This document shows, in pieces, positions 27,631-46,042 of a stretch of 64,000 nucleotides of DNA (positions are counted from its first letter, which is position 1; each line of letters opens with the position of its first letter). The stretch covers positions 14,173 through 78,172 of the forward strand of contig LDXN01000003.1 in assembly GCA_001443445.1 (NCBI GenBank), given 5' to 3'. A program made the position numbers and the translations under genes. The stretch is from Candidatus Dadabacteria bacterium CSP1-2. GTDB taxonomy: Bacteria > Desulfobacterota_D > UBA1144 > Nemesobacterales > CSP1-2. Below the pieces are notes generated by a model. The model had not been told where the DNA came from, did not search any database, and saw only the letters and a program-made list of their open reading frames with translations.

Positions 27631-27646
27631 TGTTTCACGTGAAACA
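27631..27646. promoter_or_regulatory. parS centromere-like site
   Basis: Exact consensus palindrome TGTTTCACGTGAAACA. Confidence 0.93.
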
Positions 27647-27655
27647 ATCACAACC

Positions 27656-27770
27656 TGTGGATAAAAATTTCACAAATGTGAACGCTTTTATATACATAAA
27701 ACTCAATAATTACAGATAGTTGTGAAATTTATAATCCTAGTGCAAAAAATTATCCACAATCCATCCACAG
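27656..27770. promoter_or_regulatory. DnaA-box cluster
   Basis: TGTGGATAA (27656), TTATCCACA (27750), near-match CCATCCACA (27761). Confidence 0.75.
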
Positions 27771-43910: not shown

Positions 43911-44122
43911 TTTTCCTACTCCTAATTATAATATTTATTTATATATATAGTAATAGTAGTAGTAGCTGTGAAATTGTGGAAAAGTTTAAGAAAGCCTTAA
44001 ATAGCGTTACCTTAATGGGTTGATAACTCTGTTGATAAACACATAAGCATATCCATACTTATCCACAAGCTTATTTGCCCACAATTTCTTTAACAGCTTT
44101 TCCCACAGGGTTATGAACAGTT
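43911..44122. other. Chromosomal replication origin oriC (unwinding region)
   Basis: AT-only tract 43923-43949; DnaA-trios TAG TAA TAG TAG TAG TAG 43948-43965; DnaA boxes including perfect TTATCCACA 44059-44067, TGTGGAAAA, TGTTGATAA, TTCCCACA. Confidence 0.9.
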
Positions 44123-45607
44123 CTATCTGCTCCTTATCAATGCTTCAATTTTTCTAACCACAGCATTAACAGCGTCTTTAAGTGAAGAATCCTCACCAAT
44201 CATAGCTTCGATTTTTCTTACAGCGTGTATTACAGTTGAGTGGTCTTTGCCACCGAATTTTTCTCCGATTTCTGGGAAAGAGGCTCCTGTGTATTTCCTT
44301 ATTAGGTACATTGCTATCTGTCTTGGTAGAGCAATATTCTTCGTTTTCCTTTCTGACTTTAAATCTTGTATTTTAACACCAAAAAAGTTGGCAACCTCTT
44401 TCTGAATAGACTCTATATTAAGGATAGATCTGGTTTGTTCCTTGATAATGTTTTTTAGAACCTCTTTGGCTAGATCTATGTTGATTTCTGTATTTAGTAG
44501 CTTCGCATAGGCACTGATATTTATGAGCGTTCCCTCTAGTTCTCTAATGTTTGATGTAATGTTAGTAGCCAGAAATATACCTACTTCGTTAGGTAGTACA
44601 ATCCCTTCAGTTTCGGCTTTTTTCTTAAGGATCGCTACCTTCGTCTCAGTTTCAGGTGGTTGTATATCAGCGATAAGCCCCCATTCAAACCTTGATCTAT
44701 AACGCTCTTCGAGGTAAGACATATCCTTTGGAGTCTTGTCACTAGTAAGCACTATCTGTTTTTTTGAATCGTATAAAGTATTGAATGTATGAAAAAACTC
44801 CTCCTGTGTGCTTTCTTTGCCGACGATAAATTGTATGTCATCGATAAGGAGCACATCGCATCCAAATCTATATCTGTTCCTGAACTCTTCCATCTTGTTA
44901 GATTTGATGCTATTAATCACCTGATTAGTAAAGTTTTCAGCTGAAATACTGCATACCCTAGCCAGTTGATGTGAATTTTTAAGTATATAATTGCCAATCG
45001 CATTGATTAAATGAGTCTTTCCGAGTCCGACACCACCGTGAATAAAAAGCGGGTTATAAGCTTCACCAGGTTTGCTTGCTACTGCAGTTGAAGCGGCATG
45101 AGCGAACTGGTTGCTAGCTCCAACGATAAATCGCTCGAAGGTGTAGTTTGGGTTAAGAAAACCTGTAAATAGACCCTCTTTATTTATTTCCCTTGATTTC
45201 TCTTCTTCAATATCTTCCTCGATTGAGGTAGGGCTGGCAGCAACAATCTTAATATCCAACTTCCTACCATGAACCTCTTCGATTGTTTTACTTATAAGAT
45301 CTAAATAGTGGTTATATATCCAGTCCCTTTCGAAGTTGTTTTTAGCCTTAAGGGTTAATAATTCATCTGTTTGTGATAAGGGTTTTAGGGAGTCAAACCA
45401 AAAGAACACCTGTGGATTTGCTCTCTTTTTTATTCTTTCGATTACTTCTTGCCATATGTCCTGCTGAGGAAACTCAGCCTTTTGGGTAGCTAGAGAGTAA
45501 TGGCTTACAGGGGTTACAAGAAGCCCTATTCCTCTCGATGGTTCTTCATCATTTTCATGTTTAAAAAGGGACTTAAGGTTTCGACCTAGCGTTAATTTCT
45601 TTGCCAA
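44123..45607 (-). CDS. dnaA: Chromosomal replication initiator; probable TTG start at 45607 (ORF open to 45637)
   Basis: LNPNYTF, YNPLFIHGGVGLGKTHL, LLIDDIQF, NIRELEG, GGKDHSTV. Confidence 0.98.
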   Translation of the reverse strand: MAKKLTLGRNLKSLFKHENDEEPSRGIGLLVTPVSHYSLATQKAEFPQQDIWQEVIERIKKRANPQVFFWFDSLKPLSQTDELLTLKAKNNFERDWIYNHYLDLISKTIEEVHGRKLDIKIVAASPTSIEEDIEEEKSREINKEGLFTGFLNPNYTFERFIVGASNQFAHAASTAVASKPGEAYNPLFIHGGVGLGKTHLINAIGNYILKNSHQLARVCSISAENFTNQVINSIKSNKMEEFRNRYRFGCDVLLIDDIQFIVGKESTQEEFFHTFNTLYDSKKQIVLTSDKTPKDMSYLEERYRSRFEWGLIADIQPPETETKVAILKKKAETEGIVLPNEVGIFLATNITSNIRELEGTLINISAYAKLLNTEINIDLAKEVLKNIIKEQTRSILNIESIQKEVANFFGVKIQDLKSERKTKNIALPRQIAMYLIRKYTGASFPEIGEKFGGKDHSTVIHAVRKIEAMIGEDSSLKDAVNAVVRKIEALIRSR

Positions 45608-45629
45608 AGCTCCTCCAAGAGCTAACAAC

Positions 45630-45662
45630 GTTTCCACAAGTTATCAACAGACTGTGGATAGA
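45630..45662. promoter_or_regulatory. DnaA boxes upstream of dnaA (autoregulation or bipartite origin)
   Basis: GTTTCCACA, TTATCAACA, TGTGGATAG. Confidence 0.7.
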
Positions 45663-46042
45663 TTGCTATGCAAAAATGGGATAACCTCAAACGTTTTTAA
45701 CAAGGATTAGTCACACATTTGAGGCAGTGATCAAATCCTAACAGAAAGAAAAAGCAGTTGTCAAGCATTTTTAAAAAGTTTAATGTTCACGATTAATTAG
45801 AGTTAGAATTGGGTTTCTAACGCTCAAAATAAAAATAGAAAGAGAGTTACATAGGGCGCTTCGTCCTTTATTTTCAGTATTCTACAGTGCTTTTTTGTTA
45901 TGATCAGTAAGTTTTTCAATTTGAATCTCAGGGGGCGTTAATTTAAAATGCTTAATGATTCGCTCTAAAGGCAGTAATGTAGTATTTAAATTTGGTCAAT
46001 CCACGAACATCGACTAAACAGCAAGGAGCGTAGTTTGCGATA

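What the first reader, a model, noticed from the sequence alone, without database searches (positions are those of the whole stretch)
45460..45637. DnaA with an N-terminal ParB-like (LGRGL-type) peptide: possible direct DnaA-ParA coupling
Seen: the dnaA frame extends about 50 codons upstream of domain I (DIWQEV). A GGAGG 4 nt before TTG 45607 gives MAKKLTLGRNLKSLF followed by a low-complexity linker; I saw no in-frame ATG closer to domain I. Known: chromosomal ParB proteins begin with a basic M.KK..LGRGL.AL(F/I) peptide that binds ParA/Soj and stimulates its ATPase, and Soj regulates DnaA in Bacillus. Inference: this initiator has acquired a ParB-mimic arm that could recruit or discharge ParA at oriC, linking initiation to segregation. 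The adjacent parS and DnaA boxes at 27.6 kb fit this idea. I know of no described DnaA like this.
Basis: partly seen in the sequence, partly recalled or inferred. Interest (0 to 1): 0.85.

Follow-up and report, generated by a model that had tools for sequence, protein, structure and literature searches.

The report
DnaA carrying ParB's ParA-docking tag
In two families of uncultured bacteria the replication initiator DnaA begins with a near copy of the short peptide that the segregation protein ParB uses to dock on and switch on ParA, and DnaA-binding sites sit directly beside the chromosome's centromere, which suggests a direct, so far undescribed link between starting replication and segregating the origin.

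Summary
dnaA (window 44123-45607, minus strand) starts at TTG 45607, 4 nt after GGAGG. No other in-frame start codon occurs before the middle of domain I. The 48-residue leader is predicted disordered.

It holds two short motifs. Motif 1 (MAKKLTLGRNLKSLF) nearly copies the lineage's own ParB N-terminus (MKKVTLGRGLDALIP): hhalign P 5e-6, and rank 2 of 920,953 genome positions. Motif 2 (RGIGLLVTP; GKGLEFFI in the sister family) resembles the same ParB motif more weakly.

The leader, its TTG start and its GGAGG are kept in 14 of 15 genomes of family f1 and 31-32 of 33 of f2. It was not found in 72 other genomes of the phylum. Motif 1 is under purifying selection like domain I.

A ParA dimer + DnaA(1-48) prediction gave only weak support (0.50; best control 0.01).

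A new point: the perfect parS at 27631 is abutted by DnaA boxes at fixed spacing in 13 of 13 f1 and 22 of 29 f2 parS sites, against 0 of 30 in f8, which lacks the leader.

Best reading (about 60%): a ParB-mimic tag lets DnaA bind or activate ParA/Soj. Binding is inferred, not shown. I found no paper describing this. Earlier notes of this scan reported ParB-like tags on other proteins, not on DnaA.

The parts
44123..45607 (-). dnaA coding sequence (494 aa from TTG 45607; stop included)
   Evidence: ORF list. Pfam DnaA_N 49-109, Bac_DnaA 151-313 and Bac_DnaA_C 398-466.
45605..45607 (-). TTG start codon
   Evidence: A TTG at the same place in 29 of 30 relatives' loci, GTG in one. An in-frame stop lies 0-1 codon upstream in G006, G012, G014, G022, G080 and G091.
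45612..45616 (-). Shine-Dalgarno GGAGG, 4 nt before the TTG
   Evidence: A GGAGG-type site (GGAG in G022) lies upstream of the start in the 17 relatives printed.
45563..45604 (-). Motif 1, residues 2-15 (AKKLTLGRNLKSLF): ParB-like ParA-binding motif
   Evidence: hhalign of the DnaA leader profile against the ParB N-terminus profile: P 5.1e-6, DnaA 2-22 aligned to ParB 1-21. Genome-wide rank 2. The four hydrophobic positions are kept in 29-30 of 30 sequences. pN/pS 0.27 against 0.80 in the variable linker.
45536..45562 (-). Charged, mostly acidic linker, residues 16-24 (KHENDEEPS)
   Evidence: Alignment A3.
45509..45535 (-). Motif 2, residues 25-33 (RGIGLLVTP): a second, weaker ParB-like motif (+G-hydrophobic-x-x-hydrophobic-hydrophobic)
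   Evidence: Alignment A3. hhalign puts it in the ParB register kGIe.fI = rGLDALI, but only at P 0.0023, probability 12.7%. pN/pS in f2 is 0.22.
45464..45508 (-). Variable linker, residues 34-48
   Evidence: Variable in length and sequence. pN/pS 0.80 in f1 and 0.60 in f2. pLDDT below 50.
45239..45463 (-). DnaA domain I (about residues 49-123)
   Evidence: Pfam DnaA_N. The AlphaFold2 fold begins at residue 50.
45735..45764 (-). Sigma-70-like promoter TTGACA-18-TAGGAT upstream of dnaA (consensus match only)
   Evidence: 10 of 12 matches, with TG before the -10.
45641..45661 (.). Two DnaA-box-like sites (one mismatch each) between the promoter and the SD
27631..27646 (.). Perfect parS TGTTTCACGTGAAACA, 11 nt after the stop of mnmE, in a convergent intergenic gap
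   Evidence: mnmE and the convergent aminotransferase gene identified by Pfam. It is the only parS in the genome at up to 1 mismatch.
27656..27768 (.). DnaA-box cluster abutting parS: a perfect box at 27656-27664 (-) and a perfect box at 27750-27758 (+) followed by a tandem box-like CCATCCACA
   Evidence: The same spacing (+25, +120, +131 from parS) is kept in 13 of 13 f1 parS sites and +24/+122 in 22 of 29 f2 sites.

Best explanation
This DnaA carries, on a disordered 48-residue N-terminal leader, a mimic of ParB's N-terminal ParA-binding motif, followed by a second, weaker copy. The most likely role (inferred) is that DnaA docks with this tag into the ParB-binding pocket at the interface of the chromosomal ParA/Soj-ATP dimer. 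DNA-bound DnaA would then recruit ParA and probably stimulate its ATPase, as ParB does. DnaA sits at oriC and at the conserved box cluster that abuts the single parS. The initiator and the centromere complex would thus address the same ParA pool, coupling initiation to origin segregation. What is shown: the leader must be translated, it is under selection, it is confined to two families, it resembles the lineage's own ParB peptide, the ParA pocket is conserved, and parS is associated with DnaA boxes. What is inferred: the binding, the ATPase effect and the physiological direction of the coupling.
For: (1) Translation. TTG preceded by GGAGG. No other in-frame start before residue 67. The same TTG (GTG in G022), with a GGAGG-type site upstream, is kept in 30 of 30 fetched loci, with in-frame stops directly upstream in six genomes.
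(2) Selection. pN/pS for motif 1 is 0.27 in f1 and 0.35 in f2; for motif 2 in f2 it is 0.22; for domain I 0.24 and 0.19; for the variable linker 0.80 and 0.60.
(3) Likeness to ParB. ParB of the same order starts M-KK(V/A/S)(T/V)LG(R/K)GLDALIP. f1 DnaA starts MAKK(V/L)TLGRNLKSLF. hhalign gives P 5.1e-6 with DnaA 2-22 aligned to ParB 1-21. The peptide ranks 2 of 920,953 positions in the genome. With the leader-only profile, the second-best weak hits in five f2 genomes lie in 287-304-aa frames, the size of ParB frames (their identity as ParB is inferred from frame size).
(4) Defining residues. In M. xanthus ParB, L11, L15, L18 and I19 are each needed for ParA binding and R13 for ATPase stimulation; K replaces R in about 50% of ParBs (PMC12462528, passages read). 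The four hydrophobic positions are kept in 29, 30, 30 and 30 of 30 DnaA leaders. The central K/R is kept in 14 of 14 f1 motif 1 and in 15 of 16 f2 motif 2. Every protein (30 of 30) has K/R at that position in at least one motif.
(5) The target is present and its pocket is conserved. Own ParA aligns to PDB 8ray_B at E 2e-99. The paper's pocket residues V116, L150, L152, L155, L187 and L192 correspond to I100, L134, L136, V139, L171 and L176. Y81, D110 and E117 correspond to Y61, D94 and E101.
(6) Complex prediction of the ParA dimer with ATP and Mg plus DnaA 1-48: 'weak support'. Scores 0.56, 0.48 and 0.50; best of 3 controls 0.01. The mark was reached by 58 of 80 solved complexes and 2 of 110 mismatched pairs, but at 0.60 or under by only 7 of those 80 and by both mismatches that passed. 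The runs agree in at least 70% of contacts and the partner's pLDDT is at least 52. My own alignments and the ligands differ from the calibration, and solved ParA structures exist, so the pass may reflect likeness.
(7) Independent cis evidence. DnaA boxes abut parS at fixed spacing in 13 of 13 f1 and 22 of 29 f2 parS sites, against 0 of 30 f8 sites with 2 or more boxes. The strict pattern parS-N8-12-TGTGRAYAA occurs in 13 of 15 f1 and 16 of 33 f2 genomes, but in only 1 of the 48 genomes that have the core parS and no leader.
(8) General principle. Partners of ParA/MinD ATPases use a positively charged, disordered N-terminus (PMC10241942, passages read). ParA/Soj directly regulates DnaA in B. 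subtilis (PMC6399470, passages read).
Against: No binding or activity data exist, and the complex prediction is only a weak pass. Motif 1 never has the second glycine of LGRGL: 0 of 30, with D/E/K/N/S/T instead. The position that is D/E/N/G in the ParBs of this order is K/R in 29 of 30 leaders (S in one). In f2, motif 1 has H or Y where ParB has R/K (15 of 16), although K/R stands one residue earlier. Motif 2 lacks the first hydrophobic anchor (2 of 30) and its likeness to ParB is not significant on its own (P 0.0023, probability 12.7%). Own ParA has His where M. xanthus ParA has E82. In B. subtilis, Soj contacts DnaA domain III, not the N-terminus (PMC5448010), so this route has no precedent. 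The genome has two further ParA-like ATPases that could be the target instead. The co-occurrence of leader and parS-box cluster rests on related genomes and so on one or two evolutionary events. One genome without the leader (G019, f6) has a box 8 nt from parS. The DnaA tree does not resolve whether f1 and f2 form one clade.
Confidence: 0.6

Rival explanations
1. The leader is a short linear motif with another job that happens to share ParB's amphipathic pattern. Candidates are a membrane-binding amphipathic helix, an N-terminal degron for a protease, or an intramolecular or DnaA-DnaA regulatory arm.
For: The leader is disordered. Motif 1 is basic and amphipathic. Its conserved differences from ParB (no second Gly in 0 of 30; K/R where this order's ParBs have D/E/N/G) show constraints of its own. 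The ParA complex prediction is only weak.
Against: This reading explains neither the KKVTLGR identity with the lineage's own ParB, nor the second ParB-like motif that carries the K/R-G exactly where motif 1 has lost it, nor the DnaA boxes fixed beside parS in the same families.
Confidence: 0.2
2. The tag addresses one of the other ParA-like ATPases of the genome (the two orphan modules on contig C20), not the chromosomal ParA/Soj.
For: G000 encodes further ParA-like proteins of 257 and 269 aa, each with its own downstream partner ORF. Partner peptides set specificity among co-resident ParA/MinD ATPases (PMC10241942).
Against: The DnaA peptide is closest to the chromosomal ParB peptide. Each orphan has its own adjacent partner ORF. 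I did not test whether these modules are conserved in the 45 other leader-bearing genomes.
Confidence: 0.08
3. The peptide is a sliding-clamp (DnaN) binding motif, as at the N-terminus of the DnaA paralogue Hda, giving DnaA a built-in link to the clamp (RIDA in cis).
For: Hda carries an N-terminal clamp-binding motif, QLSLF-type, QLSLPL in E. coli (PMC5397184). LKSLF shares S-L-F with QLSLF. With the DnaA query, no second AAA+ DnaA-like gene was found in G000; the only other hit was a weak domain-IV-like match.
Against: There is no Gln: the residue before the L is D/E/K/N/S/T in 30 of 30. The spacing fits neither QLxLF nor QLxLxL, because S stands where the second Leu should be. The conserved KK.TLGR part has no role in a clamp motif, whereas the whole 21-residue stretch aligns to ParB.
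Confidence: 0.05
4. The leader is not part of the mature protein: an annotation artefact or an untranslated 5' region.
For: Some public gene calls of close relatives are shorter, with 457, 444 and 428 aa members in the clusters.
Against: There is no in-frame start codon between TTG 45607 and residue 67 inside domain I. TTG and GGAGG are conserved and in-frame stops lie directly upstream in six genomes. The conservation is at the amino-acid level with synonymous change.
Confidence: 0.02

Closest known systems
N-terminal ParA-binding motif of chromosomal ParB/Spo0J (M. xanthus ParB 1-20: L11-G-R13-G-L15-x-x-L18-I19; PMC12462528)
   Same: It sits at the extreme N-terminus of a disordered arm and is basic. 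It has the same hydrophobic pattern (i, i+4, i+7, i+8) with a central Arg. In f1 it shares KKVTLGR with the lineage's own ParB, and the profiles are similar at P 5e-6.
   Different: It sits on DnaA, which has no ParB domain. The second Gly is never present, and the x position is K/R in 29 of 30 leaders where this order's ParBs have D/E/N/G. Two motifs lie in tandem on one chain, instead of one motif per subunit of a dimeric clamp. Binding has not been tested.
Soj(ParA)-DnaA regulation in Bacillus subtilis (Murray and Errington 2008; Scholefield et al. 2011, 2012, as summarised in PMC6399470 and PMC5448010)
   Same: A chromosomal ParA acts directly on DnaA, and a ParB N-terminal peptide sets ParA's ATP state. 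This links initiation with segregation.
   Different: There, Soj contacts DnaA domain III and the ATPase activator is a separate protein (Spo0J). Here the activator-type peptide is part of DnaA itself, and DnaA boxes abut parS.
N-terminal 'luggage-tag' peptides of ParA/MinD partner proteins (PMC10241942; PomX/PomY preprint 10.1101/2025.12.01.691545 seen in a search listing only)
   Same: A positively charged, disordered N-terminus assigns a cargo to its ParA-type ATPase.
   Different: The cargo protein is the replication initiator, and the tag copies that of an existing partner (ParB) of the same ATPase instead of being system-specific.
Hda N-terminal clamp-binding motif (QLSLPL; PMC5397184)
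   Same: A short N-terminal linear motif on a DnaA-family protein couples it to another chromosome machine.
   Different: The sequence pattern is different (no Gln, wrong spacing) and the predicted partner is different.
DnaA-box clusters outside oriC near gidA/parAB (P. aeruginosa oriCII, PMC13438810, abstract seen in a search listing; B. subtilis DnaA-box clusters, PMC2533591, abstract seen)
   Same: A cluster of DnaA boxes lies away from the replication origin, in the mnmE/gidA/par neighbourhood.
   Different: Here the boxes start 9-10 nt from a parS at fixed spacing and lie in a convergent gap with no promoter to regulate. They co-occur with the ParB-like tag on DnaA.

Membership tests
DnaA (bacterial replication initiator) | Domain I, the AAA+ domain III and the C-terminal helix-turn-helix domain IV | tested here: met
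   Pfam DnaA_N 4.5e-11, Bac_DnaA 9.1e-69 and Bac_DnaA_C 9.4e-33. dnaN lies directly downstream.
ParB-type ParA-binding motif | Located at the extreme N-terminus in an unstructured region | tested here: met
   Motif 1 starts at residue 2. Residues 1-48 have no secondary structure and pLDDT of about 47-54.
ParB-type ParA-binding motif | Four large hydrophobic residues at i, i+4, i+7 and i+8 (M. xanthus L11, L15, L18, I19), each needed for ParA binding (PMC12462528) | tested here: met
   Motif 1: 29, 30, 30 and 30 of 30 sequences. Motif 2: 2, 28, 29 and 29 of 30, so the first anchor is missing.
ParB-type ParA-binding motif | Central Arg or Lys at i+2 (R13), needed for ATPase stimulation | tested here: inconclusive
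   Motif 1: 14 of 14 in f1 but 1 of 16 in f2 (H or Y, with K/R one residue earlier). Motif 2: 10 of 14 in f1 and 15 of 16 in f2. At least one motif has it in 30 of 30.
ParB-type ParA-binding motif | Glycines flanking the basic residue (L-G-R/K-G-L) | tested here: not met
   Motif 1: first Gly in 15 of 30, second Gly in 0 of 30. Motif 2 has the second Gly in 28 of 30. All 26 ParBs of the order aligned have both.
ParB-type ParA-binding motif | Binds the hydrophobic pocket at the ParA dimer interface and stimulates the ATPase | not testable with these tools
   There is only a prediction: weak support, 0.50 against a best control of 0.01. The pocket residues are conserved in own ParA.
ParB/Spo0J protein family | ParB N-terminal CTPase domain and parS-binding helix-turn-helix | tested here: not met
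   There is no ParB_N or other ParB domain in this DnaA. The genome's real ParB is on contig C42.
Sliding-clamp-binding motif (QL[SD]LF / QLxLxL) | Gln at position 1, and Leu/Phe at positions 2, 4 and 5 (or 2, 4 and 6) | tested here: not met
   No Gln at the position before the Leu (D/E/K/N/S/T in 30 of 30). Ser stands where the second Leu should be.

The most novel reading that the evidence does not exclude
DnaA is a second, built-in ParA-activating component of the centromere complex in these bacteria. It binds the fixed box cluster that abuts the single parS, as well as oriC 18 kb away. With its two tandem ParB-like motifs, one chain occupies both ParB sites of a ParA-ATP dimer. Initiator occupancy would then directly gate when and where ParA pulls the origin region, or conversely ParA would gate initiation. 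This would be a one-protein link between replication initiation and segregation.
Probability: 0.3. Interest if true: 0.9.

Novelty: new variant of a known kind. Interest (0 to 1): 0.8.

Why it matters
How bacteria couple the start of replication to origin segregation is known mechanistically in few species, and there it runs through separate proteins (Soj/Spo0J acting on DnaA domain III). Here evolution appears to have written the coupling into the initiator itself and into the centromere DNA: a ParB-type ParA tag on DnaA, and DnaA boxes fixed beside parS. Both are clear, falsifiable predictions that can be tested in vitro with three purified proteins and one 150-bp DNA fragment. If true, it shows that ParA 'luggage tags' can be copied between partners of one ATPase. 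It also gives a natural system for studying how two activators share one ParA.

Tried and rejected
(1) Wider occurrence. A word-based search with residues 1-48 found only 2 proteins among 5 candidates. A profile of the first 125 residues against 1.84 billion representatives gave 1259 hits. Of the best 150 listed, only 5 (all fragments: P0031, P0032, P0033, P0039, P0106) carry the leader among the 13 that I read. The other hits starting near profile position 1-10 are unrelated coiled-coil-like leaders.

(2) The search for related loci in genome contigs returned only distant DnaAs (56% identity or less) matched from residue 27 or later, and no close relatives.

(3) Origin of the tag. The 5' ends of dnaA and parB in 14 genomes are 24-37 of 78 nt identical, no more than the shared residues require. 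A recent DNA duplication is therefore not shown, and an old duplication versus convergence stays open.

(4) A DnaA domain III-IV tree left f1, f2, f4, f5 and f6 in an unresolved polytomy, with the outgroups nested. A single gain versus loss cannot be decided.

(5) Expression. No RNA holder is listed for this stretch, and read laying was not used.

(6) A first PSSM scan with a hard pseudocount found only ParB above 12 bits. A slow BLOSUM scan timed out and was redone in vectorised form.

(7) I considered whether the box cluster at 27.6 kb is the real oriC. I rejected this because the cumulative GC-skew minimum of the whole 82.9-kb contig lies at window position 45,331, in the 5' end of dnaA, and the 27.6-kb gap is convergent.

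(9) Supplementary files of the papers were not consulted. The ParB motif logo of PMC12462528 is a figure and was not seen.
Full report
WHAT IS THERE. dnaA lies on the minus strand (44123-45637 as an open frame), with dnaN directly downstream. Read on the minus strand, GGAGG (45616-45612) is followed after 4 nt by TTG (45607-45605) and then by MAKKLTLGRNLKSLFKHENDEEPSRGIGLLVTPVSHYSLATQKAEFPQQ/DIWQEV. Pfam places DnaA_N at residues 49-109, the AAA+ domain at 151-313 and domain IV at 398-466. AlphaFold2 on the first 125 residues gives no secondary structure and pLDDT of about 47-54 for residues 1-48, and a folded domain I from residue 50. There is no in-frame ATG, GTG or TTG between TTG 45607 and a GTG at residue 67, which lies inside the invariant NPQV of domain I. 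The leader must therefore be translated if domain I is to be whole. A sigma-70-like promoter (TTGACA-18-TAGGAT, 10 of 12 matches) lies about 128 nt upstream (a consensus match only).

IS IT CONSERVED? The genome is a 92%-complete, 89-contig assembly. NCBI names near-identical DnaAs as 'Thermodesulfobacteriota bacterium' MAGs. Earlier notes of this scan call the genome Candidatus Dadabacteria; I did not check that. Its GTDB phylum holds 120 species genomes, its order 101, in eight families.

- With a profile of the first 125 residues, matches that start at profile position 2-3 occur in 14 of 15 f1 genomes, G000 included. G009 gave no dnaA hit at all.
- In f2 the same holds for 30 of 33 genomes. 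In G081 the gene is split between two contig ends. G093 matched only from position 21, with a TGA inside the match. G072 and G094 gave no hit.
- In the 53 genomes of f3-f8, matches start at position 25 or later, or are missing altogether (f7, 0 of 6).
- The leader-only profile gives strong hits (E of 3e-11 or lower) in f1 13 of 14 plus G000 and in f2 31 of 33, and a weak hit in G015 (4.9e-4). In f3-f9 it gives only weak hits (E of 0.0026 or higher) that lie away from dnaA.
- In all 30 fetched loci the frame starts at TTG (GTG in G022), and a GGAGG-type site lies upstream of the start in the 17 printed. In G006, G012, G014, G022, G080 and G091 an in-frame stop lies within one codon upstream, which pins the start.
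- Codons of the invariant L, G and R vary synonymously.
- pN/pS for motif 1 is 0.27 (f1) and 0.35 (f2). For motif 2 it is 0.63 (f1) and 0.22 (f2). For domain I it is 0.24 and 0.19. For the variable linker it is 0.80 and 0.60. Synonymous sites are near saturation, so these are rough figures.
- Public gene callers disagree on the start: 494/495, 504/505, 457, 444 and 428 aa members sit in the same 90% clusters.

WHAT DOES IT RESEMBLE? The genome's ParA-ParB pair is on contig C42. ParB starts MKKSVLGKGLDALIP. In most of f1 and f2 it starts MKK(V/A)TLGRGLDALIP. f1 DnaA starts MAKK(V/L)TLGRNLKSLF, so KKVTLGR is identical between the two proteins of one genome (for example G011, G003, G013).

- Profile-profile comparison of 30 DnaA leaders with 26 ParB N-termini aligns DnaA 2-22 with ParB 1-21 (probability 86%, P 5.1e-6).
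- In a BLOSUM62 scan of 920,953 positions of G000, the DnaA peptide is second only to ParB against the family ParB peptide, and 11th against G000's own ParB peptide.
- A second conserved motif follows an acidic linker: RGIGLLVTP here, RGIETLITP or KGLETLITP in other f1 genomes, and GKGLEFFI or GRGLE.FI in f2. hhalign puts it in the ParB register (kGIe.fI = rGLDALI), but only at P 0.0023 and probability 12.7%.

The M. xanthus study (PMC12462528; passages read) shows that L11, L15, L18 and I19 of ParB are each critical for ParA recruitment. It also shows that R13 (Lys in about half of ParBs) is needed for ATPase stimulation, and that a ParA dimer has two ParB sites and prefers juxtaposed peptides.

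In the 30 leaders, the four hydrophobic positions of motif 1 are kept in 29, 30, 30 and 30 sequences. The central K/R is kept in 14 of 14 f1 but only 1 of 16 f2 sequences, where K/R stands one residue earlier. In motif 2 it is kept in 10 of 14 f1 and 15 of 16 f2 sequences, followed by Gly in 28 of 30. Every protein has the K/R in at least one motif.

Against full membership, the second Gly of LGRGL is never present in motif 1 (0 of 30), and the position that is D/E/N/G in this order's ParBs is K/R in 29 of 30 leaders. The tag is therefore a ParB-like motif with constraints of its own, not a plain copy.

THE PRESUMED TARGET. Own ParA (262 aa) aligns to PDB 8ray_B at E 2e-99. The offset of +19 reproduces the paper's D58, D60A and N64, which identifies the chain as the M. 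xanthus ParA of that study. The paper's pocket residues V116, L150, L152, L155, L187 and L192 correspond to I100, L134, L136, V139, L171 and L176. The R13 site residues Y81, E82, D110 and E117 correspond to Y61, H62, D94 and E101.

A complex prediction (ParA dimer, 2 ATP, 2 Mg, DnaA 1-48, with my own alignments) gave 'weak support'. The scores were 0.56, 0.48 and 0.50, and the best of three controls was 0.01. The mark was reached by 58 of 80 solved complexes and 2 of 110 mismatches, but at 0.60 or under by only 7 of those 80 and by both mismatches that passed. The runs agree in at least 70% of contacts, and the partner's pLDDT is at least 52. No interface was reported, and the pass may reflect likeness to solved ParA complexes.

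The genome has two further ParA-like modules on contig C20, each with its own partner ORF.

A SECOND LINE OF EVIDENCE IN CIS. The window's only parS (perfect, 27631-27646) lies 11 nt after mnmE, in a convergent gap before a class IV aminotransferase gene. It is followed by perfect DnaA boxes at +25 and +119 and a tandem box-like site at +129.

- This layout is kept in all 13 f1 genomes that have a parS, with boxes at +25, sometimes +36 and +47, and at about +120 and +131. Every box found in each 3-kb locus lies within 135 bp of parS.
- In f2, 22 of 29 parS sites have boxes at +24 and +122. The 7 sites without are the second, variant parS of four genomes and the sites of G022 and G015, whose DnaA tags are the most degenerate.
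- In f8, which lacks the leader, all 37 genomes have the same perfect parS. Yet 0 of 30 sites examined (30 loci of the 37 genomes) have two boxes or one perfect box within 150 bp.
- The strict pattern parS-N8-12-TGTGRAYAA occurs in f1 13 of 15, f2 16 of 33 and f6 1 of 2 genomes, and in 0 of 70 in f3, f4, f5, f7, f8 and f9. Of the genomes without the leader, 48 have the core parS, so the figure is 1 of 48.
- These genomes are relatives, so this is one or two evolutionary events, not 40 independent ones.
- The cumulative GC-skew minimum of the whole 82.9-kb contig lies at window position 45,331, in the 5' end of dnaA. oriC is therefore most likely at dnaA, and the parS-box site is a separate locus 18 kb away. 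The distance is 9-19 kb in the four relatives where both lie on one contig.

MECHANISM. Shown: a translated, selected, disordered N-terminal arm on DnaA that mimics the lineage's ParB tag; an intact ParA with a conserved ParB pocket; DnaA boxes fixed beside parS. Inferred (about 60%): the arm docks on ParA-ATP dimers, so that DnaA bound at oriC and beside parS recruits ParA and probably triggers its ATPase. This would tie initiation to origin segregation.

The tandem arrangement could let one chain occupy both sites of a ParA dimer, mimicking the juxtaposed peptides of a closed ParB clamp. That is speculative. Equally possible is competition with ParB for ParA.

The direction of control cannot be read from sequence: ParA acting on DnaA as in B. 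subtilis (PMC6399470), or DnaA acting on ParA.

RIVALS. Another linear-motif function, such as a membrane helix, a degron or self-regulation, gets about 20%. One of the orphan ParA-like ATPases as target gets about 8%. A clamp-binding motif as in Hda (QLSLPL, PMC5397184) gets about 5%, because there is no Gln and the spacing is wrong. Non-translation gets about 2% and is nearly excluded.

NOVELTY. Five literature searches found no paper describing a DnaA with a ParB-like or ParA-binding N-terminal peptide. The 2017 review of DnaA N-terminal domains does not contain the word 'extension' and places Soj on domain III. Earlier notes of this scan report ParB-like tags on FtsZ, on a permease and on other proteins in other genomes (unchecked), but none on DnaA. 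I file this as a new variant of known kinds: ParA partner tags, and ParA-DnaA crosstalk. The origin of the tag is open. dnaA and parB 5' ends share no more DNA identity than their shared residues require, and the DnaA tree does not resolve whether f1 and f2 are one clade.

VERDICT. Binding is unproven. Interest is high because the prediction is specific and testable with purified components.

Noticed in passing
L113-L140 (parB loci of 28 genomes of the order): parB itself starts with TTG in 19 of the 26 genomes where a start could be assigned (GTG in 6, ATG in 1). Both ParA-tag-bearing genes of this lineage therefore use a weak start codon.
   Followed up: partly
L172 989-2034 and L173 3-1995 (G000 contig C20): There are two further ParA-like ATPase genes (257 and 269 aa), each followed by a partner ORF. 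The 91-aa partner starts MISKKKSQLGLGDIF, another basic LG-containing N-terminal peptide, and has no Pfam match.
   Followed up: partly
L002 811-1818 (G000 contig C14): A second protein with a ParB_N domain (335 aa, E 4e-7) lies away from parA. Its role is unknown.
   Followed up: no
L224-L283 (parS loci of f2 and f8): f2 and f8 genomes usually have two parS sites 1.5-1.7 kb apart, whereas f1 genomes have a single parS. In f2 only the perfect site carries the DnaA boxes.
   Followed up: partly
G019:C21:28371-28401 (family f6): One genome without the DnaA leader has a perfect DnaA box 8 nt from a parS. This is the only such case among the 48 leaderless genomes that have the core parS.
   Followed up: no
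L019-L023 (dnaA of f4, f5, f6): These DnaAs also have a leader of roughly 25-45 residues before domain I, some starting MAKK or MTRK, but without the LGR.L..LF motif. They could be either a precursor or a decayed form of the tag.
   Followed up: partly
window 43911-44122: The dnaA-dnaN intergenic gap holds three DnaA boxes (43975, 44030, and a perfect one at 44059). Together with the boxes upstream of dnaA, this suggests a bipartite origin around dnaA.
   Followed up: no
window 27646-27664 and relatives: In most relatives the right arm of parS runs straight into an inverted pair of DnaA half-sites (GAAACATCCACAGGCTGTGGATAA). ParB and DnaA sites may therefore overlap physically.
   Followed up: partly
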